Shown here: positions 18,402 through 32,729 of the stretch, piece by piece
Position numbering within the stretch: the stretch's first letter is position 1
Layout of the letters: each line of letters begins with the position of its first letter
Source: Clostridiaceae bacterium
GTDB lineage: Bacteria > Bacillota > Clostridia > Oscillospirales > Acutalibacteraceae
DNA length: 38,001 nt
Assembly: GCA_016290515.1 (NCBI GenBank)
Contig: JAEEUJ010000001.1
Location: 1 to 38,001, forward strand
Direction of reading: 5' to 3'
Translations under genes and position numbers: made by a program
The notes under the pieces: model-generated
Told to the model about the DNA's origin: nothing
The model's input: the letters and a program-made list of their open reading frames with translations, nothing else
Database searches by the model: none

Positions 18402-18815
18402 TTAGCCGTTGTGGTTCTCAGCATCAGTTGTTGCGATTTTGCAAGTTGCAACATAATTAGTGTTGGTACCATCAAATACAACCTGAGCGTTGTAGTTGTT
18501 GGTAGCACTATCAGCTGAGGGGCACTTCGGAAGTGTGCCGCCGTCAAAGAGTTTTGTGAATGAAGACTCGCCAGATACATCATAAGTTGTAGCTGATGTA
18601 AGAGTGATAGCTTCGCCGCCAGTGCCGCCGGTCATCATGAAGGTCTCCATGTTGCCCTTAATAACTCTCTGGTTGGACTTGCAGGACTTAATTCTTGCGT
18701 TCTTAGTAACTGCGCCGAAGATCGGAACTGCTACTGCTACAAGGATACCAAGGATAACAACAACGATCATTAACTCAACGAGTGTGAAACCCTTTTTGCT
18801 CATAAGTTTTCTCAT
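18402..18815 (-). CDS. pilA: Major type IV pilin (PilA-like) with a class III signal peptide
   Basis: The leader and cleavage site are MRKLMSKKG|FTLVELMIVVVILGILVAVAVPIF, with Phe at +1 and Glu at +5. The protein is small (137 aa). A C-terminal Cys pair (KCPSAD...YVATC) could form a D-region-like loop. The SD is AGGGAG, and the gene has its own promoters and two terminators. Confidence 0.9.
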   Translation of the reverse strand: MRKLMSKKGFTLVELMIVVVILGILVAVAVPIFGAVTKNARIKSCKSNQRVIKGNMETFMMTGGTGGEAITLTSATTYDVSGESSFTKLFDGGTLPKCPSADSATNNYNAQVVFDGTNTNYVATCKIATTDAENHNG

Positions 18816-18893
18816 GATAATTTCTCCCTTTATAGAATTTTTAATTTATATGATGGGCCCTGTGCCCATAATATACTCATTAACCTGTTACGT

Positions 18894-18907
18894 GAACTTT
18901 CCGTAAC
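18894..18907 (-). promoter_or_regulatory. Operator-like 14-mer copy 2 (GTTACGGAAAGTTC on the coding strand), just downstream of promoter P2
   Basis: The plus strand reads gaactttccgtaac. It matches 13 of 14 positions of the copy at 19008-19021. It is embedded in the inverted repeat GTTACG-N9-CGTAAC (18887-18907). Confidence 0.45.
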
Positions 18908-18918
18908 CCAGCATAGTA

Positions 18919-18947
18919 ATTATACACCAAAACTTTCCGTCTGTAAA
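18919..18947 (-). promoter_or_regulatory. pilA promoter P2 (sigma-70 type)
   Basis: The minus strand reads TTTACA (18942-18947), a 17-nt spacer, then TATAAT (18919-18924). A third partial motif copy, aactttccgt (18931-18940), lies in the spacer. Confidence 0.55.
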
Positions 18948-19007
18948 GTACTTTTTTGCAAATAATACAGAAATTAGCTTTTTGTATATTTTCTGTGAAC
19001 CAAACGG

Positions 19008-19021
19008 GAACGTTCCGTAAC
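19008..19021 (-). promoter_or_regulatory. Operator-like 14-mer copy 1 (GTTACGGAACGTTC on the coding strand), just downstream of promoter P1
   Basis: The plus strand reads gaacgttccgtaac. It contains the perfect 10-bp palindrome ggaacgttcc (19007-19016). Confidence 0.45.
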
Positions 19022-19034
19022 TCTTTGTGTTTTC

Positions 19035-19063
19035 ATTATAATCTATGCAATTTGCTTTGTCAA
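19035..19063 (-). promoter_or_regulatory. pilA promoter P1 (consensus sigma-70 type)
   Basis: The minus strand reads TTGACA (19058-19063), a 17-nt spacer, then TATAAT (19035-19040). Both hexamers are perfect consensus. Confidence 0.65.
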
Positions 19064-19096
19064 TACTTTTTCGAAAAAATTTTAGAATTGTTGAAA

Positions 19097-20272
19097 CTAA
19101 CCGACAAGCTCCATTACATAAGCCGTACCCTTAACAGCCTCGGCTGCGATATTTCGGAACAGCTCGTGCCTGCTGAGGAATGAAACGACCTCGGGGGATA
19201 CGCCGTAATATACATCAATAATCCTGTCACCTATTGCCGTTCCGCGCAGCGTGTTGTCACGGAAACTTCTCAAGGTATTGAGAACGCCCTCGCCGACATT
19301 TGAGTTGACCATCAGGAACGAGAACGAACAACCGAAATTCGTTCCGGTCGAGCCGCTGTTGCCGGTAACGTCGCCCGTGCTGAAATTCTTGAGCGAGATA
19401 TACTTGATAACGTTTGCTTCGTCGTCAAGATGACCGTACGTAACTCCGCTGTACTCAAAGTCGGTCGGTTTGGATTCTGTATCATTGTTTGTCTTGAGAT
19501 CCGTGCCGTAGGTGTAGCCTGCGCAGTAGGGGCTCGAGAAATAATCACCCATGGAATTGTTGAGGTTGACGTAGTTCTTGCCAACCGCATTCTTCAGCGC
19601 AAACGAGGTGTGAAGGTCATAGTAGAAATCGTAGCCCGGTCCGCTCTCAACGGTAACCGTTACGCCGTCGTTAAGATACTTATGATCCGTAACAGTCGCA
19701 TCGTCCAGACGGTGGGTGCTTTCGTGACCGTTGTCGTCCTTGCCGAAAGCGTCAACGGATACGGAGTACTTGATATTAACCTCAATCTCATCCGTGAAGC
19801 AGAATCTGTAAGCCGTATGCTGTTTTCCGTTAAGAACGTACATATGTCCGTTGTAAACAAACAGATAGGTGTACTGATAGTTGGAAGCATCAAAGCTCGC
19901 ATTGTTCGTATCTCTGGTTGCGAAATACAGTGCGTGTGAATTCTCGTCCTCGGTGAACGTTCCAAGCTCCGGACAGGACTCAAAGCTCTTGTTCGCATCG
20001 AGTGAACTCTGGTCCTCATAAAGAAGGTCAACGTTTGTTGCCGTAGCAAGCGAGCCCTGTGAAGCGTCGGCAGAATACGCGTCCATAATCGCCTTAACCT
20101 CAGTCTGAACGATGTAGAGGTTCTCGACCATTCTGTACTTTTTCCAGATCGGTCCCATAATTAACGCCAAAAGAGCCGCAACGAGAGCCATGATAGCAAC
20201 CGTAATCAACAACTCGGTTATAGTGAATCCGCGCCTGTCGCTTCTCATTTTGCCGATAGCCTTAAAAAACAC
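19097..20272 (-). CDS. Large type IV pilin-like protein (minor pilin) with a C-terminal C-x-F...LRxFRD...YYxxSP module
   Basis: The start is a GTG, 8 nt after AAGGAGG. The leader is MFFKAIGKMRSDRRG|FTITELLITVAIMALVAALLALI, with Phe at +1 and Glu at +5. The last 78 aa read GCSFSFLMVNS...LRSFRDNTLRGTAIGDRIIDVYYGVSPEVVSFLSRHELFRN. Confidence 0.8.
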   Translation of the reverse strand: MFFKAIGKMRSDRRGFTITELLITVAIMALVAALLALIMGPIWKKYRMVENLYIVQTEVKAIMDAYSADASQGSLATATNVDLLYEDQSSLDANKSFESCPELGTFTEDENSHALYFATRDTNNASFDASNYQYTYLFVYNGHMYVLNGKQHTAYRFCFTDEIEVNIKYSVSVDAFGKDDNGHESTHRLDDATVTDHKYLNDGVTVTVESGPGYDFYYDLHTSFALKNAVGKNYVNLNNSMGDYFSSPYCAGYTYGTDLKTNNDTESKPTDFEYSGVTYGHLDDEANVIKYISLKNFSTGDVTGNSGSTGTNFGCSFSFLMVNSNVGEGVLNTLRSFRDNTLRGTAIGDRIIDVYYGVSPEVVSFLSRHELFRNIAAEAVKGTAYVMELVG

Positions 20273-20343: not shown

Positions 20344-23300
20344 TCAGCTCTGGCAGGCCATCTTGTTAACGCCTGTCAATTCAAGATCCTGACATACGCC
20401 GTCATCGTCGAAGTACAGCGCATAGGTCTTGTCATTGTAAGTCTTGCCGGTATAATTGCCGTCGAGATCCGTTCTCGTAGCGCAGCGGAAGAATCCGTCC
20501 TGCGGCTGCCTTGAATAATACATTACGCAGCGGTCGCCGGTGTCCTGAACGCCGTTGTTGTTGATGTCAACATAACCCATAATGTACCAGATGCCCTGAC
20601 AGTTAACAACCGACCTGAAATTGATGTTTGTCTGGTCGGAAACCTTAACGTGAATCCAGCGTGCAATCGGAAGTCCGTCGCTGCCCGTGAGATCCTTGTC
20701 AAGGAACTTGACGTTTACGTACGAGCCTGCCTCGCCGGTTGCGCCAAGTCTGTTGTACGACTTGGGTGCGCTGTAATCCGAGGGCTTCTTGCCGCTCTGA
20801 TCGCCGACTGCTACCCAGACGTCGTCACAGAAGCAGATATCGTTTACATTCTTGAGTACGGAAACGAAGCCATAATCGTTATAAATACTTCTGCTTACCG
20901 TAGTATAGTCGTAATACTGTTTCTTATAAGTATCGGTGTTGGGCTTGATGCCGAACTTGTCGCACCAGGAGTAGTTCTCGAACTCCTTGCATACCGAGTA
21001 AATCTTGGAATCCTTAACAGATTCATAATTGTAGTACCAGCTCAGCAACGTACCGTTCGCCGTACCCCACATAGCCTGAGGCTTCATGTCGGAGGTCGTA
21101 CCCCAGTTAACCGTGGTACACTCCGTATCCATCAGCGGATGGTAGTTAACGCCGTAGTTCTGGTTGCCTGATTCAATTGAAGGCGAATAGCTCATTTGAG
21201 GAGCCTTGTTCGAGTCGGTCGACATATTAAGGTAGCCCTTATGATACGTCGTGTTCCAGCCGAGTACAGCGCTCGTGCCGGCGCCGTCGCCTATGCTGAC
21301 GCCTCTGTACTGGTCAATTCCGAAGAACTGGTGGAAAATGTTAGTTTCCTTCTTCAAGCTCCAGCCCTTGCCGGACGCAAGGTTACCTGCGTTATCGCTC
21401 TCGGTTCCGTCACCGGTTGCCCTGATATAGACAACGCCGTTGTTAAGAACCTGACCGAGTCTCGTAAGATAAGAATAGTCGTTTGCAACATAGCTGAGTG
21501 AATAGCCCGCTGCAAGCGAAATATTATTGCCGGTAAGATCGTCGTGGAAGCTCTTAACGTCGAGCATCGTGACGTTGTCTCTCAGACCGCCCGAAACGAA
21601 CGAGTGGTTGAAAGCGCCGCCCGAAAGTATGCTCGAACCGATGCCGTCGCCGGGCTTCTTGAAGTAGAAGTCGGAACCGCCCGTCAAGCCCGAAAGACCG
21701 GACATCTTGGGAACGGTCGGGTTGTTGACGTCAATCGCATAAGGCTGCGAAAGGTAACCCATCGTGATATCAACCTCATGGCCTGCAGTTACGTAGTAGT
21801 CCGTGCCTTCCTCGGGAAGAGCCGTTCCGAGATAGCTTCTGGCAGAAAGCGAACCGCTTGTTGCATATTCGCCGCCGCTTCCGTTGGGACCGTAATAAAG
21901 CTTCGCATTGGTAACCGAAACCACTACGCCGTCCTGATGCGGTTTACGGTACTGATACTGATAATCATCGGTCTTTGAGATGATAACGGTATTGTCGCTG
22001 CTCGAAATCTCATTACCGAGTACGATTCTGTTACCGTCCTCGACCTTCAGGCGCTTATAATCGTCGGTATCAACCCATCTGTTATTGATATAAACCTGTG
22101 AAGATCTGATATTCGTGATTCGGATATTTCTCGTAGTACCGCCCGTTCCGTCCTTAAGTTCACCGGTTCTGTAACTGCTGTTTGTCTTGCCGACATCACC
22201 GGGCTTGATAAGCTGAATGTTTTCGGCTAATCCTGTCTCATTTTTCCAGCCGCCGAACAGGTAGAAGCATTCATACTCAACATCATAAGTTACTCTTATG
22301 GCGTACTGATTGTCATAGTCCTTATACTTCGGCGTTTCACTCGCGCCGAAGGGATATCTCGTCGGCTCAGTGCCGTAGTTCAACAGCGAGAACCAGTTTG
22401 CATTCGTGCCGAACAACGTACTAGAAAGTTGTCCGGGAACATCACTCGTGGTTGCGGCGGATCTTGTGTCACCGAACTTACCGGTCGGGTACCATTTGTT
22501 ACCGTCGGTCGCAATACCGAGTGTACCGGTATGAAGCCACATACTGTAGTTGTTGTAAAGCAGCGAACCGATATTCTTCGTTTTCCAGCCCCATGTATCA
22601 ATAACAGCGGGAATAGTTCCGCAGTACAGCGTGTAGGACTGGGTAGGATACAGCTGCTGTCCGAGAACAGATGTCTGATTTGACTGATAGTAATTCGGAT
22701 TTGAAGTATTAATCTGAACCGCACCGACAGACGTAATCGTTATAAGCGAGGGATCGTCGGTATATTCATAGTTAGTTGCGGTCTTGTAACCGTCGATATC
22801 AAGCTCTGAACCGTAGCCCGAGTGGTCAAGCCAGGTGTAAAGCTTACTGTTGGCATCCTGACGGAAGCTGACAAATCCTGTGGTTAAGCCTTTTTCCTTA
22901 TCATAAAGCTCAGTACCGCAGCCTGCATAACGTGCCGAATAGCCGTCGCTGTTTTTAATCGCAAGCGCCCTGCCGACGGTTGTGAAATATGTATCGCTGT
23001 TGGTTACATTGGCTGTGTAGTAGTTACTGGTAATCATTCTGTACTCAAAGCCGATTGTAATAAGTTCGTCGGCAGTGAGCTGGTTAGCACCGTCAACACC
23101 GTTATATTTGAAGTAACCCTGACTCGAACGGAAAATGCTCTTGAACTGAGCCTGAGTTGTATTGGTCTGAGTAATTGTTTCATGGCTGCTGCCGTCGGCC
23201 TGATTATTACCTGTAATGTAATAATATCTGTCATACTGACCGAGAACGTCGCCGCCCCAGTAGTAGTTGCCGGTTGTCTCGTTTCTCCAGAAGCGTCTTA

Positions 23301-24282
23301 CCTGACCTGCGTCGCCGCCCATTACATAATAGCCGTACTGGTTTACGCCGCCGTTTCCGTCGTCGCCTCTGCCCTTTGCAACCCACTCAACGTCGTTCAT
23401 TGCCGATATGAGCGGAGCACCGGACATCTTCTTTGCAACAATGTCCATTTTACCGGTCTTAACGTCAACACCCTCTGTTGCGTAGTAATAATAGTTGCCG
23501 TCGTCGGCCTTTTCGCCTACAAGGATGATTTCGGGAGCGCCGATTTCAACCTTTACCTGATAAAGCATGCCGCCGTTGCCGCAATACTGAATCCAAAGCG
23601 GTGAACGCTCAAAGCTGATAACGTTGTTTGCGCCCTTGAAGGTAAAGATTGCAACCTTACCGCCGTCGCCGTCGTTTGCATAGGCAATATCGTAATAATT
23701 GGTCGAAACCTTTTCCTTGGTTCCGTCATCTTTGGTATTGTAAACCTCGAAATGATATCCGGTAACGGCACTCTTGTTTTCTGCGCTCGCGTGGAACTTG
23801 AAGCCCTTGGGTACTACCGTAATATCCTTTGTGATAAAGTCGTCCGTAAGGTTTGCGGGGAAGCAGACCATTGTGCTGCCCGTTGACGGCGTATAGAACG
23901 AAACATAGGACTTTTCATCATTAAGAGACTCCGAAACCATTGTGCCGTGAACATTACCTACAGAATTGGCTCCGGTATTTGAAAAGTCAATCGTAGTTGA
24001 GCCTGCCGAAAGGGTAATCGGCATATTGGCAACAGCAGTCTCATAGCCTGTGTCGTTAGAGCCGTCGGGGTTAGCAATAAGTCGCTCCATTATGCTGGAT
24101 CTCTCATATGTTTTCCGTGTTATCTGACCGGCAGTTCTCGTATTTCTGAAATACGTCATGAACAGCGGTGTGAAAACCATTATGATAAGAACCAGAAGCG
24201 TCATCGCAACCAAAACTTCTACAAGCGTCATACCGTTTTTTGAACGTAAACGCTTAATTCCGTTTTTGGTCTTATTGTTCAT
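20344..24282 (-). CDS. Giant (1312 aa) protein with a type IV prepilin leader; candidate modular minor pilin / tip adhesin
   Basis: The SD AAGGAGG precedes the ATG. The leader is MNNKTKNGIKRLRSKNG|MTLVEVLVAMTLLVLIIMVFTPLF, with Met at +1 and Glu at +5. The remaining ~1270 aa are rich in Tyr, Gly, Asn and Thr. I recognised no known domain by eye. There are several Cys near the C-terminus. Confidence 0.8.
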   Translation of the reverse strand: MNNKTKNGIKRLRSKNGMTLVEVLVAMTLLVLIIMVFTPLFMTYFRNTRTAGQITRKTYERSSIMERLIANPDGSNDTGYETAVANMPITLSAGSTTIDFSNTGANSVGNVHGTMVSESLNDEKSYVSFYTPSTGSTMVCFPANLTDDFITKDITVVPKGFKFHASAENKSAVTGYHFEVYNTKDDGTKEKVSTNYYDIAYANDGDGGKVAIFTFKGANNVISFERSPLWIQYCGNGGMLYQVKVEIGAPEIILVGEKADDGNYYYYATEGVDVKTGKMDIVAKKMSGAPLISAMNDVEWVAKGRGDDGNGGVNQYGYYVMGGDAGQVRRFWRNETTGNYYWGGDVLGQYDRYYYITGNNQADGSSHETITQTNTTQAQFKSIFRSSQGYFKYNGVDGANQLTADELITIGFEYRMITSNYYTANVTNSDTYFTTVGRALAIKNSDGYSARYAGCGTELYDKEKGLTTGFVSFRQDANSKLYTWLDHSGYGSELDIDGYKTATNYEYTDDPSLITITSVGAVQINTSNPNYYQSNQTSVLGQQLYPTQSYTLYCGTIPAVIDTWGWKTKNIGSLLYNNYSMWLHTGTLGIATDGNKWYPTGKFGDTRSAATTSDVPGQLSSTLFGTNANWFSLLNYGTEPTRYPFGASETPKYKDYDNQYAIRVTYDVEYECFYLFGGWKNETGLAENIQLIKPGDVGKTNSSYRTGELKDGTGGTTRNIRITNIRSSQVYINNRWVDTDDYKRLKVEDGNRIVLGNEISSSDNTVIISKTDDYQYQYRKPHQDGVVVSVTNAKLYYGPNGSGGEYATSGSLSARSYLGTALPEEGTDYYVTAGHEVDITMGYLSQPYAIDVNNPTVPKMSGLSGLTGGSDFYFKKPGDGIGSSILSGGAFNHSFVSGGLRDNVTMLDVKSFHDDLTGNNISLAAGYSLSYVANDYSYLTRLGQVLNNGVVYIRATGDGTESDNAGNLASGKGWSLKKETNIFHQFFGIDQYRGVSIGDGAGTSAVLGWNTTYHKGYLNMSTDSNKAPQMSYSPSIESGNQNYGVNYHPLMDTECTTVNWGTTSDMKPQAMWGTANGTLLSWYYNYESVKDSKIYSVCKEFENYSWCDKFGIKPNTDTYKKQYYDYTTVSRSIYNDYGFVSVLKNVNDICFCDDVWVAVGDQSGKKPSDYSAPKSYNRLGATGEAGSYVNVKFLDKDLTGSDGLPIARWIHVKVSDQTNINFRSVVNCQGIWYIMGYVDINNNGVQDTGDRCVMYYSRQPQDGFFRCATRTDLDGNYTGKTYNDKTYALYFDDDGVCQDLELTGVNKMACQS

Positions 24283-24315
24283 AAAAGCTACCTCCTTATC
24301 GTATTCGGCTCCTGT

Positions 24316-26064
24316 TTAACCTAACACCCACGTAAGCGACGAACCGTCTGTCGGATCCGGGGGAACAAGTGATTTGAATGTGTCTGCTAAATAAGTGAAC
24401 GCTCCGCTGTATGGATCGCGTTCTATCTTTCTCATTGCGTTATAGGTGATTACTCCGTCGTCATTGCCGATAACGTATGTTGTCGGTGTCTTGTCGGTTG
24501 TGGAGTAGTACATCGCCATAACCTCGGTAAATCTTGAAAGAACGTTGTCGGAATAGCGCTTGGTTGCTACTGAATAGTCGATGAAATACTTGAAGAGGTC
24601 TATTCCGTATCCTTCCTTGGTGCCGACCGACTGAGGAAGATTGTCATCAAAATAATATGTATCTCCGGCATTGAAAGCCTTGTAACGGTAGTTGCCTACG
24701 TTGGGAATCTGGATGTTAACGAAAACGTTACCGCCGAAGAAAATCTTTCCGCACTTGCCGTAACCGCCCTGTGAAGGCATTGTTACGCCCGAACTTGAAA
24801 TAGTCGGTGCAAGCGTGTAAATTGCCTGATGTACCGGGTCGGTAACCGTTGAGGTCTCGGGATTCGGCGTACCGATAACGACCGTGCTCCAGCAGTAGTT
24901 GCCGGCGATTGCCTGATACATTGAGGTCATATTCTGACCGAACAGTCTGCCCAACAGTGACGAGGACGATCTCGTGAAACCGTAAACATAAATCTCAACG
25001 TCGCCGTTAAGAACTATGGTGTCACCTCTGAGATACATTACATTGAAGCAAGTCTTTGACGGTGTAACGTCAATGTTCGTGTTAATGAAAATGTTCTGCT
25101 TTCCGATGAAGGAAACCATATTGCTCTGGTTCGGCTTAAACTTAATCGTTCCTGCGGTGGGCTGATTCATTATCATATTACCTGTGGTATATGCCATAAG
25201 AATCGGAACGGTCTGCTGGTTGAGCGTAATCGGATATGAGTTTTCGATACCGATATACTTTCCGATGAACGGAATGTTGTTGAACAGGCTTATCTTAATC
25301 ATAAGCGTTGTTCCGGTGCTGTATGTACCGAGAACGTTGAAGTTGTCGTTCTTCGCAATCGGAACCTGAACGCTCTTTTCGGTGCCGTTGTCGTCATATT
25401 TAATTGTCTTTTTCTGATTTGTAACGCCGCCGTCGATTATGCCGTCGTCGTTATAGAACTTGCCGAGCGCCTGAACAGGCTCGGAGAGATACGCCTTTTT
25501 GGTGGCTCCAACAACGCCTGCGCCCGCTCTGCCGACGTGTCCGTGCGCCTCGATAATTCTCTGGCTTTCCTTGATTTCTACCGGATACGACGTGACGCCG
25601 GAAGCTGAAGTTGTATCCTCCTCAAGAAGATTGGCAACGCTGATGTCAACCGCACTTGTAACGGTAACATCATAGTAGCCGATAATCTGATCGTCGGTGT
25701 ACGATCCGATGTTGCCGCCCTGAACATACTTGTAGTGGTTGTTGTCGGGCTCGCTGCGGTCGAAAACGAGGTAAACCTGATTTGACTGCATAGATGCGCC
25801 TTCTGAATTTGTACTTGAAATAAGCGTGTTTGCAGCCGCATTGCTTCCGCTTGCACTGACAGCAAGCTGGTACGCATACGATGCGGATTCAACGCCCGCC
25901 TGTGCGAGATATTCGGCTTTTTTCCTGTCTGAAAGGAATCTTACCGAACGAAGAGACGTTACGGAATACATATACATCGCCGTTCCCATAAGGGAAAGTA
26001 CGAACAGAAGGAATACGACGGAAATTATTGCAAATCCGCCGTTCTGCTTCAATTTGGTTTTCAT
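24316..26064 (-). CDS. PilX/GspK-like large pseudopilin with a PilX_N-type N-terminus and no Glu at +5
   Basis: The likely start is Met21 of the track ORF (MKTKLKQNGG|FAIISVVFLLFVLSLMGTAMY), preceded by GAAAGGGTGG. It contains KKAEYLAQAGVESA, which is typical of PilX N-terminal domains. The 20-codon upstream extension to 26124 overlaps a terminator-like hairpin and has no SD. The start coordinate is approximate, to within a few nt. Confidence 0.7.
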   Translation of the reverse strand: MKTKLKQNGGFAIISVVFLLFVLSLMGTAMYMYSVTSLRSVRFLSDRKKAEYLAQAGVESASYAYQLAVSASGSNAAANTLISSTNSEGASMQSNQVYLVFDRSEPDNNHYKYVQGGNIGSYTDDQIIGYYDVTVTSAVDISVANLLEEDTTSASGVTSYPVEIKESQRIIEAHGHVGRAGAGVVGATKKAYLSEPVQALGKFYNDDGIIDGGVTNQKKTIKYDDNGTEKSVQVPIAKNDNFNVLGTYSTGTTLMIKISLFNNIPFIGKYIGIENSYPITLNQQTVPILMAYTTGNMIMNQPTAGTIKFKPNQSNMVSFIGKQNIFINTNIDVTPSKTCFNVMYLRGDTIVLNGDVEIYVYGFTRSSSSLLGRLFGQNMTSMYQAIAGNYCWSTVVIGTPNPETSTVTDPVHQAIYTLAPTISSSGVTMPSQGGYGKCGKIFFGGNVFVNIQIPNVGNYRYKAFNAGDTYYFDDNLPQSVGTKEGYGIDLFKYFIDYSVATKRYSDNVLSRFTEVMAMYYSTTDKTPTTYVIGNDDGVITYNAMRKIERDPYSGAFTYLADTFKSLVPPDPTDGSSLTWVLG

Positions 26065-26273: not shown

Positions 26274-27962
26274 TTATACGATAACACGGGCGATTTCCTC
26301 GAGTGAGGTTCTGCCTTGCATTACCTTATAAATACCCTCGTCCTTCAGGGTATGCATACCCTGCTTGATAGCAAGCTCCTTAACCTCGGCAACAGTAGCG
26401 CGGTCAAGGATGAGACGCTTCATTTCCTCGGAAACCGTAAGGAATTCGAAAACGGCTTCTCTGCCCTTATAACCCGTATGGTTGCAGGTTATACAGCCCT
26501 TAGCTCTGTAGAGTGTGAATTCCTCGTCGGGATACTCCTCGGTATTGAGGTCGGGAATAATCTTGAGAAGGTCTTCCCTGGAAATTTTATATTCCTCCTT
26601 GCACTTGGGGCACAGACGTCTGACAAGACGCTGAGCAAGCACGCCGACAAGCGAGGATGCCGTCAGGAAGGGCTCAACGCCCATTTCGTCAAGACGGGTA
26701 ACCGCACCGGGTGCGTCGTTTGTATGCAGGGTGGAAAGAACCATATGTCCTGTAAGAGCCGCTTCGATAGCGATTTTAGCAGTCTCAGCGTCACGGATTT
26801 CACCGACCATGACGATATCGGGGTCGGAACGGAGAACCGAACGAAGAGCAGCTGCGAAGGTCATACCTGCACGGTTGTTCATCTGAACCTGGTTAATACC
26901 GGACATACGGCGCTCAACGGGGTCCTCAAGTGTAATTGTATTGGTTTCAAGACGGCTTATCTCGTCAAGAACGGCGTAAAGCGTCGTCGACTTACCCGAA
27001 CCGGTAGGTCCGGTAACGAGAACGAAGCCGTAAGGCATATGAATAGCCTTCTGGAATCTGTCAAACTGTCTCTCTGAGAAGTGTAAGTCCTTAAGCTTGA
27101 CAACGCCCTGGCTTCTTTCAAGAAGACGGAGAACTATTTTCTCACCGAAAACAGTGGGCATTGTAGCAATACGCAAGTCAAGTACGCGGTCCTCATATCT
27201 TACGGTAGCACGGCCGTCCTGAGGAATACGCTTTTCGGCGATGTCCATACCGCCGATAACCTTGACACGGGAAACTATGGACGGGAAAAGTCTGATGTTG
27301 TTCTGCAAAATTTCCTGCAAAACGCCGTCGATTCTGAAACGGACTCTCATGTACTTCTCAAGAGCCTCTATATGTACGTCCGATGCGCCCATCTTGATAG
27401 CGTTGTTGATAACCTGATTAACCAGCATAACCGCCGGTTTATCGTCAAGGTCAAGCTCCTCGCTGCCGTTTTGCTCTATGAGTGCGTCATCTTCGTCGTC
27501 AAACGCTTCCATGCTGCTCATATTTGAGAAATTCTCAATAGCGGCAGCAAGCTCCATATCGGGAACGACAACCGGGCATATCTCCATACCTGTCATAAGG
27601 CGGAGATTGTCGATGGTGATAATGTCGTTGGGATTCTTCATCGCAACGTACAGTGTCTTTTCGTCCTTGTAAAGAGGAAGAACGTTGTTGCGCAAAGCCA
27701 TCTCGGGAGTTATGTAATTTGCAACCTCGGCGTTGAAGCCTATTTCGTTAATGGACACATACTTATAGCCTGTCTTTTTAGCAAGGACCTTGGCTATTTC
27801 GTCCTCAGTACAGTAACCCAACTGAGTAAGTATGGTACCCAAGAGGCTTTTACTTGTCTTTTGTATTTCCAGAGCTTCGGCAAGCTGATCCTCTGTGATA
27901 ATGCCCGCTTCGACAAGTCTGTAACCCAGACTGCCCGGAATTACTACGTTTGAATTCAACAT
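26274..27962 (-). CDS. pilB: Type IV pilus assembly (extension) ATPase PilB / GspE family
   Basis: It has an N-terminal T2SSE_N-like domain. Walker A is GPTGSGKSTT, Walker B is DPDIVMVGEIRD and the His box is GHMVLSTLHTN. A tetracysteine motif is present (CPKC...CITC). Confidence 0.93.
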   Translation of the reverse strand: MLNSNVVIPGSLGYRLVEAGIITEDQLAEALEIQKTSKSLLGTILTQLGYCTEDEIAKVLAKKTGYKYVSINEIGFNAEVANYITPEMALRNNVLPLYKDEKTLYVAMKNPNDIITIDNLRLMTGMEICPVVVPDMELAAAIENFSNMSSMEAFDDEDDALIEQNGSEELDLDDKPAVMLVNQVINNAIKMGASDVHIEALEKYMRVRFRIDGVLQEILQNNIRLFPSIVSRVKVIGGMDIAEKRIPQDGRATVRYEDRVLDLRIATMPTVFGEKIVLRLLERSQGVVKLKDLHFSERQFDRFQKAIHMPYGFVLVTGPTGSGKSTTLYAVLDEISRLETNTITLEDPVERRMSGINQVQMNNRAGMTFAAALRSVLRSDPDIVMVGEIRDAETAKIAIEAALTGHMVLSTLHTNDAPGAVTRLDEMGVEPFLTASSLVGVLAQRLVRRLCPKCKEEYKISREDLLKIIPDLNTEEYPDEEFTLYRAKGCITCNHTGYKGREAVFEFLTVSEEMKRLILDRATVAEVKELAIKQGMHTLKDEGIYKVMQGRTSLEEIARVIV

Positions 27963-28002
27963 CTATATAATCTCCCTATAGTGGTTTGTGCTGATAAATC
28001 AA

Positions 28003-28593
28003 TTATTTTGAAAAGAACACAATCACGATTTCGGCGGTCTTTTCTGTACTGGTTCCGCCGGTCATTCTGATGGTATCAATTCTCTTGATTTTAGTATCGC
28101 TGGTAATATCTCTGCAGAAGCTCATAATGTCTCTGAAGTCGCCGCTGATTTTCAAATTAACAACCATCTGGTTAACAAATCCGTTGTTAGACTCTTCACC
28201 GAAAGTAATCTCGCTGAGATTGCAATTGTGCGCCTCAACATTGTTCTCCAGAGCTATCATCATTTCGAGCTGATCGAAGCCTTCGTCGGAAATCATCTCG
28301 TCATAAGCTTCCTTCTGCGCGGAATATTCACCGCTTTTTGCCTGAAGTGCTTTAAGATTGGCTATCTTGTTCTGATTTTCAACTATCTGAGCCTTTACCG
28401 TATCGATTCTGGTACGGGTTTCTTCGATTTTACCGTTATTGTAAACAATCAAAGCGATAAGAGCTATACAGGCGATAGCGATTATAGCGATTACTATTCT
28501 GACGTCGTCAAAAATCTTGGCGGCGGAAAACTGCTTCTTTTCCTTAGCTTCGTTTGTAACTTCTCTTTTTTTAATTACATCGCTCAATGCCAT
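28003..28593 (-). CDS. pilO: PilO-like pilus alignment protein
   Basis: 196 aa with a short cytoplasmic N-terminus, one TM helix (IVIAIIAIACIALIALIV), a coiled coil and a small C-terminal globular part. It sits directly after the pilM and pilN genes. Confidence 0.6.
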   Translation of the reverse strand: MALSDVIKKREVTNEAKEKKQFSAAKIFDDVRIVIAIIAIACIALIALIVYNNGKIEETRTRIDTVKAQIVENQNKIANLKALQAKSGEYSAQKEAYDEMISDEGFDQLEMMIALENNVEAHNCNLSEITFGEESNNGFVNQMVVNLKISGDFRDIMSFCRDITSDTKIKRIDTIRMTGGTSTEKTAEIVIVFFSK

Positions 28594-28605
28594 AATCCTA
28601 CCTCC

Positions 28606-29298
28606 TTATTCAGCGCTCGCAGTGGTGGCCTCAGCGGTAACTGCAGTTGTTGCAACCTCGCCGCTCTCATTGGTAACAGCTTCGCCGTTTTCGTTGGTAA
28701 CGGTTACATACTGCGGAGCCTGCTCAGCAGGTGCAATAGCGTTCTGAGTGCTCAGAACAAGCGTAAAGTTAACTGACTTGTTGTGATTCGAGGAACTCTG
28801 TCTCTGAATGTTTGTAATCTCAACGCCCTTAACGATTTCCTGCATTTCCTCAGTCTTGAAGAGTGCCTCATAGTCCTTCATATCCTGATAATCCTGAACG
28901 GTACAGTTGAGCGTGCAAACACCGCTGTTAAACCATTCTTCGATATCAATCTCATTAATCTGAACGTAATCGGGAGTCTTATTGACGACGGTTGTAAAGA
29001 AATCAACAGACTCGCCGTCAGACGGTAAAATGCTCGAAATCATCTGTCTGGAAGAAATCAGGCTGTCGTAAATGCCTTGGTATTCCTGCAATGCCGGGAA
29101 TTCGCTTTCCAGTCTGGAGTTCTCTCTCTCCAGCTTTTTAAGCTTTGATTCGAGCACAGCGTTCTTGATGGCAAAACCGCCGTAAACAATAAACAGACAA
29201 ATAAGAATAACTGCTGCGAACCTGGAGACTATGTCAACCTTATCTCTGCTTTGCAGATGACGCCTGTAACTGTCAGGCAATAAACTTACTTTGAACAC
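28606..29298 (-). CDS. pilN: PilN-like pilus alignment protein
   Basis: The start is a GTG, 8 nt after GGAGG, and it abuts the pilM stop. The N-terminal KVSLLPDSYRR matches the INLLP-type PilM-binding motif. One TM helix and a coiled coil follow. The C-terminal tail is rich in Thr, Ala and Glu. Confidence 0.68.
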   Translation of the reverse strand: MFKVSLLPDSYRRHLQSRDKVDIVSRFAAVILICLFIVYGGFAIKNAVLESKLKKLERENSRLESEFPALQEYQGIYDSLISSRQMISSILPSDGESVDFFTTVVNKTPDYVQINEIDIEEWFNSGVCTLNCTVQDYQDMKDYEALFKTEEMQEIVKGVEITNIQRQSSSNHNKSVNFTLVLSTQNAIAPAEQAPQYVTVTNENGEAVTNESGEVATTAVTAEATTASAE

Positions 29299-30288
29299 TT
29301 ACTTTACCTCCATTGCCGCGATTGCAAGGCCTATGCAGCCTGCAAATTCGTTAATAACCTTCTGATCAAGTCCGAAATTGTTTGCCTTATAGAAATCGGG
29401 AACAATAACCGGAATTGTTGAAACTATGTCCTTCATCTTGTTTGCAAGTTCGTCATTCTCGGACAGAGTAGACAGGAGGAAGATTTTTTCAATAGGCGAA
29501 TCGCTGTTCTGCATAGAATAGTAGCTTACCGAAGACGAGGTTTCCTGCGCAAGCATAGCTCCTACCTCTTCGATATCCTCTGCTCTCTTGGCAGCGTCGT
29601 CATAGGAGCCTGCGAACAGTCTTTCGACATTCTCCTCAACTCTTTCGGGAATCTGAATTGAACGGACCATTGAAATCTCGTTGCCTTTGATAATAAGGAA
29701 GTTAAGCAAATCCTCGGTTATGTTAAGAACCGCATATTTCTCTTCGCCGACAACGCTGGACTGAAGACCTCTGCACAGCGAAAGAACGCTTGCATCTACA
29801 TCAACAACCAGAAACTTTGATGCGGAAAGAGTGTTTATATACTGCTCTATCATATTCCTTCTCGCAGCTACAAGCATAACATTTGTTACTGCCTGATCCT
29901 CGTCATTTTTACCTTCGCTGGCAATAACATAGTCCAATTCCAGTTCCTGTACGGGAATCGGAATGAATTCCTGAGCCTGCAAGAGAACCATATTGCGAAG
30001 CTTATCTTCGGCAACCTGAGGAAACGTTGCATATCTCATAACGACGTTTTCGTTATTAAAGCCGAGAACGATTTTTACCGACTTGAAACCGCCGTTAGTG
30101 ATAAGCTCGGTAAGAGCAATGTTGAATTTGTCGGCATCTCTTATAAAACCTTCTTCAATTACTCCCTCGGGAAGCGGAATCTTACCGCAGGCGAGTACCG
30201 AGTACTCACCGTTTATACGGCTTACCTCGACCGCTCTTATTTCCCTGGAGCTGACCTCAAGTCCGATTCTGCTTTTAATCTTTGCCAT
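29299..30288 (-). CDS. pilM: PilM, actin-like ATPase of the T4P alignment complex
   Basis: 329 aa with an N-terminal GLEVSSREIRAVEV phosphate-1-like motif. Its size and position immediately upstream of the pilN-like gene support the call. Confidence 0.82.
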   Translation of the reverse strand: MAKIKSRIGLEVSSREIRAVEVSRINGEYSVLACGKIPLPEGVIEEGFIRDADKFNIALTELITNGGFKSVKIVLGFNNENVVMRYATFPQVAEDKLRNMVLLQAQEFIPIPVQELELDYVIASEGKNDEDQAVTNVMLVAARRNMIEQYINTLSASKFLVVDVDASVLSLCRGLQSSVVGEEKYAVLNITEDLLNFLIIKGNEISMVRSIQIPERVEENVERLFAGSYDDAAKRAEDIEEVGAMLAQETSSSVSYYSMQNSDSPIEKIFLLSTLSENDELANKMKDIVSTIPVIVPDFYKANNFGLDQKVINEFAGCIGLAIAAMEVK

Positions 30289-30305
30289 AATAATCTTCTC
30301 CTGTA

Positions 30306-31511: not shown

Positions 31512-31539
31512 GCTTTTTGCTCCCTTCTCTTATAATCTC

Positions 31540-32640: not shown

Positions 32641-32690
32641 TTCTTCTGCAACTCCAAACTAATGAGATATTATTTATAAAAGCCACTATA

Positions 32691-32717
32691 GGGTGCAGGC
32701 TTTTTGAGTCTGCACCC
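32691..32717 (-). other. Stem-loop between the PilQ-N-like gene and pilT; possible partial terminator or attenuator
   Basis: The minus strand reads gggtgcag-actcaaaaagc-ctgcaccc followed by TATAGTGGCTTTTATAAA. The U-tract is displaced from the stem and weak. Confidence 0.35.
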
Positions 32718-32729
32718 GTATATTATTTA

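What the first reader, a model, noticed from the sequence alone, without database searches (positions are those of the whole stretch)
20344..24282. A 1312-aa protein carrying a bona fide prepilin leader: giant modular pilin or built-in tip adhesin
The N-terminus (KNG|MTLVEVLVAM..., with Glu at +5 and a 20-residue hydrophobic helix) is a standard class III signal. The mature protein is about ten times the size of an ordinary pilin and about the size of PilY1-type tip proteins. PilY1 proteins themselves lack pilin leaders.

The body is rich in Tyr, Gly, Asn and Thr. Sequence strings resembling propeller blades occur near both ends (for example DVEWVAKGRGDDGNGG near the N-terminal part, and DDVWVAVGDQSGK and GIWYIMGYVD near the C-terminus). 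These are separated by more than 800 residues of unrecognised sequence.

Modular pilins with grafted adhesion domains are known in Gram-positive T4P, but this size is extreme. The protein may act as the pilus adhesin, with the pilin module and a PilY1-like function fused in one polypeptide.
Basis: partly seen in the sequence, partly recalled or inferred. Interest (0 to 1): 0.75.

Follow-up and report, generated by a model that had tools for sequence, protein, structure and literature searches.

The report
Giant propeller-bearing type IV pilin
This is a real gene for a type IV pilus subunit about ten times the usual size, whose large beta-propeller-like body probably sits at the pilus tip as the adhesin in uncultured gut and rumen Clostridia; it pushes the known "modular pilin" design to an extreme rather than being a new kind of system.

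Summary
The ORF is real. It lies on the minus strand (20344..24282), encodes 1312 aa and has a strong RBS. Its leader MNNKTKNGIKRLRSKNG|MTLVEV has Gly-1, Glu+5, a hydrophobic alpha1N and Pro22. Leu3, Glu5, Leu7, Phe20 and Pro22 are invariant across 75 aligned homologues; Gly-1 is at least 90% conserved.

In 57 species-level MAGs (Ca. Fimenecus, Oscillospiraceae and relatives) the gene holds a fixed slot in a retractile T4aP operon. The order is LysM/secretin-N protein, PilT, PilC, PilM, PilN, PilO, PilB, a GspK/PilX-like protein lacking Glu5, the giant pilin, a 391-aa pilin, PilA, YfhO.

AlphaFold models are confident (pLDDT 88.8 for a 54%-identical full-length homologue; 80.5 for window residues 641-1312). 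They show a roughly 50-residue N-terminal helix followed by an all-beta body. Foldseek matches only beta-propeller proteins of many unrelated families, all weakly (TM 0.37 or less). PilY1 is found neither by sequence nor among the top structural hits.

The C-terminal domain carries a conserved EF-hand-type loop. A roughly 180-aa accessory domain (641-820) is present in only about a third of homologues.

Best reading: a tip-located modular minor pilin that combines carrier and adhesin, analogous to PilY1 but not homologous to it. Processing, tip location and adhesion are inferred. Novelty: a new variant of a known kind.

The parts
20344..24282 (-). Giant prepilin gene: 1312 codons plus a stop at 20344-20346
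   Evidence: ORF list and translation. Full-length homologues exist in 57 species genomes. An independent assembly is 95.9% identical at nucleotide level, with synonymous changes far outnumbering non-synonymous ones.
24291..24297 (-). Shine-Dalgarno AAGGAGG, 8 nt before the ATG. The intergenic gap from the upstream X602 gene is only 33 nt
   Evidence: Sequence read.
24232..24282 (-). Class III leader peptide, residues 1-17 (MNNKTKNGIKRLRSKNG), ending in Gly-1
   Evidence: Direct reading. Gly-1 is at least 90% conserved in the family.
24073..24231 (-). Alpha1 helix of the pilin module, residues 18-70: Met1, Glu5, hydrophobic alpha1N, Pro22
   Evidence: N_methyl and TIGR02532 matches. Leu3, Glu5, Leu7, Phe20, Pro22 and Gly35 are invariant. 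AlphaFold gives a helix at 16-66 in homologue P0016, which corresponds to about 20-70 here.
23533..24072 (-). Beta-rich remainder of the carrier, residues 71-250 (pilin sheet and/or beta-sandwich). Shared with ~650-aa relatives and other giant relatives
   Evidence: Strands follow the helix in the model. Profile positions 13-250 are matched in many ~650-aa pilins. Ig-type two-domain Foldseek hits of about 245 columns appear, but the tool does not say which region they align to.
22363..23532 (-). Conserved N-terminal half of the body, residues 251-640, all-beta and propeller-like. Contains the most conserved stretch of the protein (291-345: L.SAMNDVEWV..G.GDDGNGGVN.YGYYVMGGDAGQVRRFW...GNYYWGGD)
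   Evidence: Conservation profile. Model pLDDT is above 90. Residues 6-389 are homologous to a second giant-pilin family (hhalign probability 99.8%).
21823..22362 (-). Optional accessory domain, residues 641-820. Present as a 165-252-aa segment in about 30% of homologues and replaced by a 12-50-aa linker in most others. Parts of it are non-homologous even between close relatives
   Evidence: Column occupancy is 0.12-0.49. BLAST segment maps. Insert lengths are bimodal. The model shows long beta-hairpins at pLDDT 55-82, and pLDDT falls below 50 for residues 769-821.
20347..21822 (-). Conserved C-terminal beta-propeller-like domain, residues 821-1312, with a conserved C-terminal strand (G-V-N-x-M-A-x-Q)
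   Evidence: Most of the model of the window's own sequence has pLDDT above 90. All Foldseek PDB hits are beta-propellers: DDB1, Mycoplasma P110, Sec13, GH43, LGI1, MET Sema and Sec12, with E 8e-6 to 4e-3 and TM 0.37 or less.
20533..20568 (-). EF-hand-type loop, residues 1239-1250: D-I-N-N-N-G-V-Q-D-T-G-D. The family consensus is D-x-[ND]-x-[ND]-G-x-x-D-x-x-E
   Evidence: Column counts out of 75: D1 69, position 3 N/D 72, position 5 N/D 74, G6 66, D9 63, E12 63.
24316..26064 (-). X602: upstream partner, about 582 aa from MKTKLKQNGG|FAIIS. GspK/PilX-like minor pilin lacking Glu5
   Evidence: Weak PilX_N hit (E 0.01). The conserved N-terminus K.N.G|[FMAV]A[LI], without Glu5 and followed by KKA.YLA.AG, is seen in the large majority of the ~55 loci examined. 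It always lies immediately upstream of the giant gene.
19097..20272 (-). P391: downstream partner, a 391-aa pilin (RRG|FTITE) with a CFI-box-CTERM domain
   Evidence: N_methyl 26.9 bits and NF041770 44.3 bits (cutoff 40). It follows the giant gene wherever the contig extends that far.
18402..18815 (-). Candidate major pilin (137 aa, KKG|FTLVE), with its own consensus promoter (19063-19035) and terminators (18388-18351, 18321-18298)
26274..34496 (-). T4aP machinery transcribed upstream in the same direction: PilB 26274-27962, PilO 28003-28593, PilN-like 28606-29298, PilM 29299-30288, PilC 30306-31511, PilT 31540-32640, LysM/secretin-N protein 32730-34496
   Evidence: Pfam and NCBIfam matches. 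The order is identical in 57 loci.

Best explanation
The gene encodes a giant modular minor pilin of a retractile type IVa pilus of a monoderm gut/rumen Clostridium.

Proposed mechanism:
1. The prepilin is inserted in the membrane by its class III signal and cleaved after Gly17 by the prepilin peptidase.
2. Through its canonical alpha1 helix (Glu5, Pro22) it assembles with the two flanking gene products: X602, a GspK/PilX-like cap subunit without Glu5, and the 391-aa pilin. Together they form a three-subunit priming complex, comparable to GspI-J-K or to PilVWX-PilY1.
3. PilB then polymerises the 137-aa major pilin underneath this complex, so the complex ends up at the pilus tip.
4. The roughly 1,240-residue beta-propeller-like body is far too bulky for the filament shaft. 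It is therefore displayed at the tip as the ligand-binding (adhesin) head. A conserved EF-hand-type loop probably binds Ca2+.
5. A lineage-variable accessory domain (641-820) and a recombining C-terminal half tune specificity.
6. PilT-driven retraction then pulls the cell toward whatever the head has bound.

Functionally this merges the 'carrier' minor pilin and the PilY1-type adhesin into one polypeptide.

Shown (computationally): the gene is real, the pilin signal is present and conserved, the operon context is fixed, the fold class is propeller-like, and the loop and variability patterns are as described.
Inferred: cleavage, incorporation into the pilus, tip position, adhesion and calcium binding.
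For: Pilin identity:
- Gly-1, Glu+5 and a hydrophobic alpha1N are present, with HMM matches.
- Leu3, Glu5, Leu7, Phe20 and Pro22 are invariant and Gly-1 is at least 90% conserved in 75 aligned homologues. The G|MT[LYF]xE leader is also visible by eye in more distant 600-2100-aa relatives.
- AlphaFold predicts a roughly 50-residue N-terminal helix followed by beta structure (pLDDT 88.8, pTM 0.84).

Pilus context:
- The order PilT-PilC-PilM-PilN-PilO-PilB-X602-GIANT-P391-PilA is invariant in 57 species.
- The same slot is occupied by a second, very divergent giant-pilin family.
- PilT scores 467 bits against a cutoff of 319.
- X602 has a GspK/PilX-type N-terminus without Glu5. The triad therefore mirrors the K/I/J cap logic.
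- No other minor pilin and no PilY1 gene is in the operon.
- Three loci carry a second complete X-GIANT-P391 triad. This resembles the multiple minor-pilin/PilY1 sets of Myxococcus (PMC8833165 abstract).

Head:
- Both models match only beta-propeller proteins.
- The EF-hand-type loop is conserved. PilY1 also has functional 9-residue Ca sites (PMC3248442).
- pI 5.0 argues against DNA binding.

Exposure and specificity:
- The accessory domain is optional and partly replaced between close relatives.
- In a between-strain comparison, PilB is 99.5% and X602 99.8% identical at nucleotide level. The giant gene diverges from about codon 640 onward (93 of 492 codons differ in 821-1312, against 4 of 260 in 1-260). 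P391 is 97.5% identical.

Precedent:
- Modular pilins are argued to be tip-exposed adhesins (PMC8179133).
- A propeller-bearing minor pilin, PilX2, mediates host binding in Saccharibacteria (PMC11623550).
Against: - There is no experimental data of any kind; all hosts are uncultured MAGs.
- No prepilin peptidase gene lies in the window or in the 10-kb flanks examined.
- The PF07963 score for the whole protein (20.2 bits) is just under the gathering cutoff (21.2).
- Structural matches to propellers are weak (TM 0.37 or less, RMSD above 11 A).
- No known adhesion or lectin domain is detected by sequence.
- It is unexplained how a 143-kDa head would cross a Gram-positive wall.
- The between-strain differences are mostly synonymous (68 synonymous, 25 non-synonymous in the C-terminal domain). 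This indicates recombination under purifying selection, not positive selection for new specificities.
Confidence: 0.6

Rival explanations
1. The class III signal serves only as a membrane anchor or export device. The protein stays at the cell surface or in the wall zone, either as a bindosome-like displayed binding protein or as a structural part of the pilus machine (for example a wall-spanning scaffold). It is never polymerised into the filament.
For: - The size (143 kDa) is awkward for passage through peptidoglycan.
- Archaeal bindosome substrate-binding proteins use class III signals without forming long pili (established knowledge).
- The operon also encodes other unusual wall-associated parts, a LysM/secretin-N protein and a weak PilP-like protein.
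- Incorporation into pili is untested.
Against: - Glu5 and Pro22 are invariant. These residues matter for filament assembly, not for anchoring.
- The gene sits between a GspK/PilX-like cap subunit and another pilin rather than among the PilMNO genes.
- The variability of the distal half is that of an exposed ligand-binding part.
Confidence: 0.15
2. The body is an enzyme displayed on the pilus rather than an adhesin, for example a glycoside-hydrolase-type beta-propeller acting on plant or host glycans.
For: - Foldseek hits include GH43 arabinofuranosidase, arabinanase and galactosidase and GH68 levansucrase propellers (probability 0.72-0.96).
- The hosts live in fibre-degrading gut and rumen communities.
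- The C-terminal domain has invariant Asp, Glu and two His residues.
- Peptidase-bearing modular pilins have been noted before (PMC8179133).
Against: - TM-scores to GH propellers are only 0.21-0.30 and no better than to non-enzymatic propellers (Sec13, MET Sema, P110).
- No GH family HMM matches even at E<=10 on sub-fragments.
- Catalytic residues could not be mapped.
Confidence: 0.1
3. It is a true PilY1/PilC homologue that acquired a pilin N-terminus by gene fusion.
For: - Similar overall size (PilY1 is 1,163 aa; PMC3248442).
- A C-terminal propeller-like domain with an EF-hand-type Ca loop.
- No separate PilY1 gene in the operon.
Against: - PF05567 is not matched by the whole protein, nor by four sub-fragments at E<=10.
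- A profile of 75 homologues finds no PilY1 or PilC chain among PDB sequences.
- No PilY1/PilC structure is in the top 50 Foldseek hits for either model.
- Dx[DN]xDG loops recur independently in many folds (PMC3123361).
Confidence: 0.05
4. It is the DNA receptor of a competence-type pilus, a functional analogue of Thermus ComZ.
For: - The system is retractile (PilT present).
- Large minor pilins such as ComZ bind DNA (cited in PMC8179133).
Against: - The mature protein is acidic (pI 5.0).
- The machinery is PilB/PilT/PilMNO-type rather than ComG-type.
- No ComEA, ComEC or similar genes are in the window.
Confidence: 0.04

Closest known systems
Modular minor pilins PilB (vWA) and PilC (lectin) of Streptococcus sanguinis T4P (Raynaud et al. 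2021, PMC8179133; Shahin et al. 2023, PMC9934059)
   Same: It comes from a monoderm host. A canonical class III signal and small pilin module act as 'carrier', and a bulky 'effector' module is grafted on. The role is predicted to be a tip-exposed adhesin. It is encoded in the T4P operon.
   Different: The body is about 1,240 aa, against about 350-400 aa in PilB/PilC. It is propeller-like and matches no InterPro or Pfam family. It appears to consist of several parts: a beta-rich carrier extension, two conserved beta halves and an optional inserted domain. Function is untested.
PilY1/PilC tip adhesin plus minor-pilin priming complex of diderm T4aP (Pseudomonas, Neisseria, Myxococcus; PMC7541494, PMC3248442)
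   Same: Total size is similar. There is a C-terminal beta-propeller-type domain with an EF-hand-like Ca loop. It is encoded next to minor pilins, and some genomes have multiple alternative sets. The expected role is priming plus adhesion at the tip.
   Different: PilY1 is not a pilin; it has a Sec signal and docks on minor pilins. Here the pilin helix is part of the same chain. No sequence or top-ranking structural similarity to PilY1 was found. Only two partner minor pilins are present instead of four or five.
PilX2 of Saccharibacteria TM7x (PMC11623550)
   Same: It is a minor pilin carrying a C-terminal beta-propeller. It is implicated experimentally in host binding without being needed for filament extrusion.
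   Different: PilX2 is much smaller, has an RCC1-repeat seven-bladed propeller and lacks a predicted PilD signal. The present protein has a canonical signal, gives no RCC1 match and has a far larger body.
GspI-GspJ-GspK pseudopilus tip complex of type II secretion (described in PMC8179133 and PMC7248040)
   Same: A three-subunit cap in which one subunit lacks Glu5 (GspK; here X602) and carries an inserted extra domain. The three genes are adjacent.
   Different: The T2SS subunits are 120-330 aa and have no adhesin role. Here all three are enlarged (about 582, 1312 and 391 aa) and the system has PilT.
Other large structural minor pilins: ETEC CofB, Vibrio TcpB, Thermus ComZ (discussed in PMC8179133, PMC5207764)
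   Same: Each has a pilin module followed by beta-rich extra domains that sequence tools do not recognise. Each has a tip or initiator role.
   Different: They are about 500-550 aa, belong to T4b or competence systems, and have beta-repeat, beta-sandwich or beta-solenoid folds rather than propeller-like ones.

Membership tests
Type IV pilins (class III signal peptide proteins; PF07963 / TIGR02532 / IPR012902) | Short basic leader ending in Gly(-1), followed by about 21 mostly hydrophobic residues with Glu at +5 | tested here: met
   MNNKTKNGIKRLRSKNG|MTLVEVLVAMTLLVLIIMVFTPLF. Glu5 is invariant and Gly-1 at least 90% conserved in 75 homologues.
Type IV pilins (class III signal peptide proteins; PF07963 / TIGR02532 / IPR012902) | Score above the curated cutoff of the N-terminal methylation-site HMMs | tested here: met
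   TIGR02532 scores 16.8 against 16.3. PF07963 scores 22.7 against 21.2 when residues 1-259 are scanned, but 20.2 for the whole protein. The result is borderline but positive.
Type IV pilins (class III signal peptide proteins; PF07963 / TIGR02532 / IPR012902) | Extended alpha1 helix of about 50 residues with a beta-sheet packed on its C-terminal half | tested here: inconclusive
   The helix at 16-66 followed by strands is predicted in homologue P0016. The N-terminus of the window's own protein was not modelled. Packing of the sheet on the helix could not be inspected because no coordinates were available. pLDDT is 53-74 in this part.
Type IV pilins (class III signal peptide proteins; PF07963 / TIGR02532 / IPR012902) | Encoded with, and dependent on, a type IV filament machinery (PilB/PilC/PilM/PilN/PilO, PilD) | tested here: met
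   Operon context is conserved in 57 loci. However, no PilD gene lies in the window or the flanks.
Type IV pilins (class III signal peptide proteins; PF07963 / TIGR02532 / IPR012902) | Cleavage and N-methylation by the prepilin peptidase, and polymerisation into the filament | not testable with these tools
   Needs biochemistry or proteomics.
Modular pilins sensu Raynaud et al. 2021 (PMC8179133) | An N-terminal pilin module fused to one or more additional structural modules not specific to T4P biology | tested here: met
   About 1,240 residues of confidently folded beta structure follow the helix. The N-terminal 250-390 residues are shared with relatives that carry different bodies.
Modular pilins sensu Raynaud et al. 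2021 (PMC8179133) | The extra module has a direct role in a pilus function (adhesion and the like) | not testable with these tools
   Inferred only.
PilY1/PilC family (PF05567, IPR008707) | Sequence match to the PilY1/PilC C-terminal domain model | tested here: not met
   No hit in the Pfam scan of the whole protein at E<=0.01, nor of four sub-fragments at E<=10. A profile search against PDB sequences finds no PilY1 or PilC chain.
PilY1/PilC family (PF05567, IPR008707) | Modified seven-bladed beta-propeller structurally similar to PDB 3HX6 | tested here: inconclusive
   The fold class is propeller-like, but no PilY1/PilC entry is among the top 50 Foldseek PDB hits of either model. Weaker similarity beyond the listed hits cannot be excluded.
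PilY1/PilC family (PF05567, IPR008707) | EF-hand-like calcium site in the propeller | tested here: met
   The motif D-x-[ND]-x-[ND]-G-x-x-D-x-x-E at 1239-1250 is conserved in about 85-90% of homologues. Calcium binding itself is untested.
PilY1/PilC family (PF05567, IPR008707) | Not a pilin: it has a Sec-type signal and associates non-covalently with minor pilins | tested here: not met
   This protein has a class III signal.
Verru_Chthon cassette proteins (TIGR02596-TIGR02600) | Match to the cassette protein models | tested here: not met
   The giant protein gives no NCBIfam hit to these models. Only the small pilin weakly matches proteins C and D through its N-terminus.
RCC1-propeller pilin (TM7x PilX2 type) | RCC1 repeats forming the propeller | tested here: not met
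   No RCC1 or other repeat family appears in the Pfam scans. hhalign finds no internal repeats.

The most novel reading that the evidence does not exclude
The X602-giant-P391 triad may be a self-contained tip machine specific to a large clade of uncultured Clostridia. In this reading it replaces both the four core minor pilins and PilY1 of classical T4aP. One 143-kDa pilin would carry a previously undescribed double propeller-like, calcium-regulated head with an exchangeable specificity domain. This oversized tip would be delivered through the Gram-positive wall by an equally unusual conduit built from the operon's pore-less LysM/secretin-N protein and a PilP-like protein. That would amount to a distinct architectural subtype of type IV pilus.
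Probability: 0.3. Interest if true: 0.7.

Novelty: new variant of a known kind. Interest (0 to 1): 0.5.

Why it matters
Standard pilin finders for Gram-positive bacteria assume pilins are shorter than 350 aa. The training set behind one such tool had a median of 144 aa and a maximum of 333 aa (PMC3244431). The published survey of modular pilins relied on InterPro-recognisable extra domains (PMC8179133).

This family, and at least one sister family in the same operon slot (1,000-1,500 aa, with one member of 2,109 aa), is invisible to both approaches. It is annotated only as [quoted passage not shown] or "hypothetical".

It shows that gut and rumen Clostridia build pili whose tip subunit alone is as large as PilY1. 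It gives a concrete candidate for the attachment determinant of abundant uncultured commensals such as Ca. Fimenecus. It raises a mechanistic question: how is a 143-kDa head exported through a thick wall? It also supplies a confidently predicted fold with no close solved relative.

Practically, the conserved carrier (residues 1 to about 390) can serve as a search handle for cataloguing the effector heads of Clostridial pili.

Tried and rejected
- **Family scans of the body.** Pfam and NCBIfam scans of the whole protein and of four sub-fragments at E<=10 gave nothing beyond the N-terminal pilin motif and sub-threshold noise (Hydant_A_C, DUF5897, SdrD_B, Arch_flagellin).
- **PDB sequence searches.** Searches with the protein and with a 75-sequence profile hit only geopilin N-termini.
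- **Internal repeats.** hhalign of the N-half against the C-half, and of each against itself, found no internal repeats or duplication. The 'blade-like strings' are therefore not detectable sequence repeats.
- **Foldseek against BFVD.** The hits were uninformative: scattered phage and herpesvirus beta proteins.
- **C-terminal domain elsewhere.** A profile search with the C-terminal domain alone, looking for it in non-pilin proteins, returned only six hits. These look like truncated gene calls from short contigs with no signal peptides. No stand-alone version was found, but the tool's word pre-filter makes this a weak negative.
- **RGD motif.** The RGD at residues 305-307, tempting because PilY1 uses an RGD, is rejected. 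Arg is present in only 18 of 75 homologues.
- **Riboswitch or other RNA element.** I looked for one in the window, including the 280-nt leader of the major pilin gene. Rfam gave nothing at gathering threshold or at E<=1.
- **Assembly chimera.** Rejected on the independent assembly and on full-length conservation.
- **Antisense ORFs.** The ORFs of 84-173 aa inside the gene on the plus strand were treated as mechanical by-products and not investigated further.
- **Model coordinates.** I could not inspect them, so blade counts and domain packing are not reported.

Full report
**1. The observation**

The window has an uninterrupted 1312-codon ORF at 20344..24282, on the minus strand. The finding gave the coordinates but not the strand. 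The plus-strand reading is full of stops.

An AAGGAGG Shine-Dalgarno sequence lies 8 nt upstream of the ATG. The upstream gene ends only 33 nt before it.

The N-terminus reads MNNKTKNGIKRLRSKNG|MTLVEVLVAMTLLVLIIMVFTPLF. It has:
- a basic leader ending in Gly;
- Glu at +5;
- about 21 uncharged residues;
- Pro at +22.

It matches TIGR02532 above cutoff (16.8 against 16.3 bits). It matches PF07963 at 20.2 bits for the whole protein and 22.7 bits for the N-terminal 259 residues, against a cutoff of 21.2.

The mature protein is 1295 aa, 143 kDa and pI 5.0. It is enriched in Gly, Thr, Tyr and Asn relative to other proteins of the window.

A pattern scan of all six frames finds a class III motif in only three real genes of the window: this one and the two pilin genes downstream.

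**2. It is a real, conserved gene, not a chimera**

A protein search returned 270 relatives of 1,100-1,460 aa. In the 120 listed, the G|MTL[VT]E cleavage motif is visible throughout. In a 75-sequence alignment Leu3, Glu5, Leu7, Phe20, Pro22 and Gly35 of the mature protein are invariant, and Gly-1 is at least 90% conserved.

An independent assembly (Logan SRR28201449, L061) carries the same 3939-nt ORF. It has 100 synonymous and 35 non-synonymous codon differences, which indicates purifying selection.

**3. Context**

All neighbours on the minus strand are type IVa pilus genes. In transcription order they are:

| Coordinates | Product |
|---|---|
| 32730-34496 | LysM plus STN/secretin-N-domain protein |
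| 31540-32640 | PilT (TIGR01420, 467 bits against a cutoff of 319) |
| 30306-31511 | PilC |
| 29299-30288 | PilM |
| 28606-29298 | PilN-like protein |
| 28003-28593 | PilO |
| 26274-27962 | PilB |
| 24316-26064 | X602, a protein of about 582 aa |
| 20344-24282 | the giant gene |
| 19097-20272 | P391, a 391-aa pilin (RRG\|FTITE) |
| 18402-18815 | a 137-aa pilin |
| 15051-17990 | YfhO |

The 137-aa pilin has its own consensus promoter and terminators.

A scan of one genome per GTDB species found the giant gene in 57 loci. All are uncultured gut, rumen or caecal Clostridia MAGs: Candidatus Fimenecus, Oscillospiraceae/Ruminococcaceae, Acutalibacter and unnamed Clostridia.

tblastn with the window's proteins shows the same gene order in every locus, wherever the contig extends far enough. 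Three loci (L001, L002, L018) carry a second, inverted X-GIANT-P391 triad. Its giant member is only about 45% identical to the first.

In the large majority of the ~55 loci examined, X602 homologues begin K-x-N-x-G|[FMAV]-A-[LI]. A hydrophobic segment with no Glu at +5 follows, and then KKA-x-YLA-x-AG. That is the PilX_N/GspK signature; the Pfam PilX_N match is weak (E 0.01).

The operon therefore encodes exactly three minor-pilin-like proteins: one cap-type subunit without Glu5 and two with Glu5. That is the logic of the GspK-GspI-GspJ tip complex.

**4. Anatomy**

Conservation along the alignment and BLAST segment maps give four regions:

| Residues | Description |
|---|---|
| 1-250 | Leader, alpha1 and a beta-rich region |
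| 251-640 | Conserved; includes the most conserved stretch of the protein (291-345) |
| 641-820 | Poorly occupied region |
| 821-1312 | Conserved |

- **Residues 641-820.** Insert lengths are bimodal. Most homologues have a 12-50-aa linker. About 30% have a 165-252-aa domain. Parts of that domain are non-homologous even between proteins whose flanks are 71-81% identical.
- **Relatives sharing only the carrier.** A profile search of 1.84 billion representative proteins found about 32 full-length family representatives. It also found many other proteins that share only the N-terminal part of the profile. These are 1,000-1,500 aa (one of 2,109 aa) or about 650 aa, matching profile positions 5-330/430 or 13-250 respectively. 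Nearly all the near-full-length ones have G|MT[LYF]xE-type leaders on reading their N-termini.
- **A sister family.** One of these sister families (P0170 and about 90 relatives, all 'hypothetical' Clostridia MAG proteins) occupies the same operon slot (L060). Profile-profile comparison shows homology only over residues 6-389 (probability 99.8%).

The N-terminal 250-390 residues therefore behave as a conserved carrier, and the remainder as a lineage-specific head.

**5. Structure**

AlphaFold2 on the 54%-identical full-length short homologue P0016, with the 75-sequence alignment, gave pLDDT 88.8 and pTM 0.84. It predicts a helix at 16-66 (mature residues about 3-53) followed by an almost purely beta body. 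The window's own N-terminal 640 residues were not modelled, so the helix and the N-terminal half are inferred from this homologue.

The window's own residues 641-1312 gave pLDDT 80.5. The C-terminal domain is mostly above 90. The accessory domain scores 55-82 and forms long hairpins. The segment 769-821 is of low confidence.

Foldseek against the PDB returned, for both models, essentially only beta-propeller proteins from unrelated families:
- DDB1, SF3B3, CPSF160 and Elp for the full-length model;
- DDB1, Mycoplasma P110 adhesin, Sec13, GH43 and GH68 enzymes, LGI1, MET Sema and Sec12 for the C-terminal part.

E-values ran from 8e-6 to a few 1e-3, but TM-scores were 0.37 or less. Some two-Ig-domain (Fab-like) hits also appeared for the full-length model.

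The fold class is therefore propeller-like with high consistency, but no solved structure is close. PilY1/PilC structures are not in the top 50 of either search. No blade repeats are detectable at sequence-profile level.

**6. Functional clues**

- **Calcium loop.** The C-terminal domain carries a 12-residue EF-hand-type loop at 1239-1250: D-x-[ND]-x-[ND]-G-x-x-D-x-x-E. Positions 1, 3, 5, 6, 9 and 12 are conserved in 84-99% of 75 homologues, and a small subclade lacks the loop. PilY1 has two functional 9-residue Ca sites that control pilus dynamics and integrin binding (PMC3248442). Dx[DN]xDG loops, however, recur independently in many folds (PMC3123361).
- **RGD.** The RGD at 305-307 is not conserved.
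- **Charge.** The acidic pI argues against DNA binding.
- **Strain variation.** Between the window and strain L061, PilB and X602 are 99.5-99.8% identical at nucleotide level. The giant gene is almost identical up to about codon 640. It then diverges: 26 of 180 codons differ in 641-820 and 93 of 492 in 821-1312, mostly synonymously. P391 is 97.5% identical. This mosaic is best explained by recombination that replaced the distal half of the gene and its downstream partner.

**7. Mechanism proposed**

The best-supported reading is as follows.
1. The prepilin is processed at Gly17.
2. Via its alpha1 it nucleates a cap with X602 and P391.
3. PilB assembles the major pilin beneath this cap.
4. The cap is carried to the pilus tip. 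There the roughly 1,240-residue propeller-like head is the ligand-binding element, probably stabilised or regulated by Ca2+. The optional 641-820 domain and the recombining distal half provide variation.
5. PilT retraction then exerts force on the bound ligand.

Tip location follows from sterics, the argument Raynaud et al. make for modular pilins (PMC8179133), and from the cap-like gene triad. The adhesin role follows from analogy with S. sanguinis PilB/PilC, PilY1 and the propeller-bearing PilX2 of Saccharibacteria (PMC8179133, PMC7541494, PMC11623550).

None of these steps is demonstrated. I put 0.6 on the full statement and about 0.9 on 'bona fide minor pilin of this T4P'.

**8. Rivals**

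- **Surface- or wall-retained protein using the class III signal only as an anchor (0.15).** Invariant Glu5 and Pro22 and the gene's position argue against it, but wall passage of a 143-kDa head is unexplained.
- **Pilus-displayed enzyme (0.10).** GH43 and GH68 propellers are among the hits, but they score no better than non-enzymes.
- **True PilY1 fusion (0.05).** The sequence tests are negative and the structural tests show no specific similarity.
- **DNA receptor (0.04).**
- **Chimera or artefact (below 0.01).**

**9. Comparison with what is known, and novelty**

It works like a modular minor pilin and like PilY1. It qualifies as a member of the type IV pilins and of 'modular pilins' in the structural sense. 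It is not a member of the PilY1/PilC family, because the defining sequence model was tested and not met and it is itself a pilin.

What is new:
- **Scale.** Gram-positive pilins used to train PilFind had a median of 144 aa and a maximum of 333 aa, and the tool filters at 350 aa (PMC3244431). The multi-domain extreme highlighted in the InterPro survey was 860 aa (PMC8179133).
- **The head.** The propeller-like head has no family assignment.
- **The triad.** A fixed three-gene cap module replaces the usual four minor pilins plus PilY1.
- **Breadth.** Giant pilins with interchangeable heads occur across a whole clade of uncultured Clostridia.

I found no paper describing them. I rate it a new variant of a known kind, with interest 0.5. 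A T4P specialist would find the size and the family's breadth notable and the wall-passage problem intriguing. The concept (carrier pilin plus effector head) is established, and the hosts are uncultured.

Noticed in passing
window 19097-20272 (-): The 391-aa pilin immediately downstream of the giant gene ends in a CFI-box-CTERM domain (NCBIfam NF041770, 44.3 bits against a cutoff of 40; residues 331-377...LRSFRDNTLRGTAIGDRIIDVYYGVSPEV...). A pilin carrying this C-terminal domain is unusual. The paper library contains nothing on the CFI-box. It follows the giant gene wherever the contig extends that far.
   Followed up: partly
window 32730-34496 (-) and 34546-35058 (-): The first gene of the pilus operon encodes a 588-aa protein with LysM, STN and secretin-N-type domains and a Ser-rich linker. 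It also aligns to GspD positions 80-246, but has no secretin pore domain. The 170-aa membrane protein just upstream has a weak PilP-like hit (E 0.046). Together they look like a pore-less PilQ(N-domains)/PilP remnant anchored to peptidoglycan in a monoderm. That makes them a possible wall conduit for the pilus. The LysM protein is conserved at this position in nearly all loci.
   Followed up: partly
window 15051-17990 (-): A 979-aa YfhO-family membrane protein (E 1e-140) follows the major pilin gene(s) in most of the 57 loci. It may glycosylate the pilin or a wall polymer. This was not tested.
   Followed up: no
window 20344-22362 (-) and 19097-20272 (-), compared with L061: A strain-level mosaic. 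PilB and X602 are 99.5-99.8% identical at nucleotide level between two assemblies. The giant gene diverges sharply after about codon 640, mostly synonymously, and P391 is 97.5% identical. This suggests a recombination breakpoint inside the giant gene.
   Followed up: partly
L001 15702-23012, L002 15741-22833, L018 15178-22272: Some genomes carry a second, inverted copy of the whole X-GIANT-P391 triad next to the first. Its giant member is only about 45% identical to the first (P0035). These may be alternative tip sets, as in Myxococcus.
   Followed up: partly
L060 7860-14691; proteins P0170, P0257-P0339, P0138: A second giant-pilin family (G|MTYVE..., 1,100-1,400 aa) occupies the same slot between a 698-aa X-like protein and a 374-aa pilin. 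It is homologous to the window's protein only over residues 6-389. One relative, P0138, is 2,109 aa. About a dozen ~650-aa relatives share only positions 13-250.
   Followed up: partly
window 26274-27962 (-): PilB carries an N-terminal MshEN-type cyclic-di-GMP-binding motif (NF053729, E 9e-18, residues 12-62; PF05157, E 2e-13). Pilus extension is therefore probably controlled by c-di-GMP. Rfam found no c-di-GMP riboswitch.
   Followed up: partly
window 18816-19096 (-): The major pilin gene has a perfect TTGACA-17-TATAAT promoter (19063-19035), a second near-consensus promoter (18947-18919) and an untranslated leader of about 220 nt. Two strong terminators lie downstream (18388-18351, 18321-18298). 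No known RNA family matches the leader.
   Followed up: partly
window 10271-14881 (-): A 1536-aa surface protein with about 14 BspA-type leucine-rich-repeat units, a PDPVN repeat linker and three SLH domains. It lies just beyond YfhO and is another candidate adhesin of the same organism.
   Followed up: no
window 23362-23370 (-), residues 305-307: The giant pilin contains an RGD tripeptide inside its most conserved loop (KGRGDDGNGG). Arg is present in only 18 of 75 homologues, so it is probably coincidental.
   Followed up: yes
window 35322-36824 (-): A Wzz/tyrosine-kinase-like protein ends in an unusually regular Gly-Tyr repeat tail (YGYGYGYGKGYGYGYGYGYGYGYG) followed by KKKKK.
   Followed up: no
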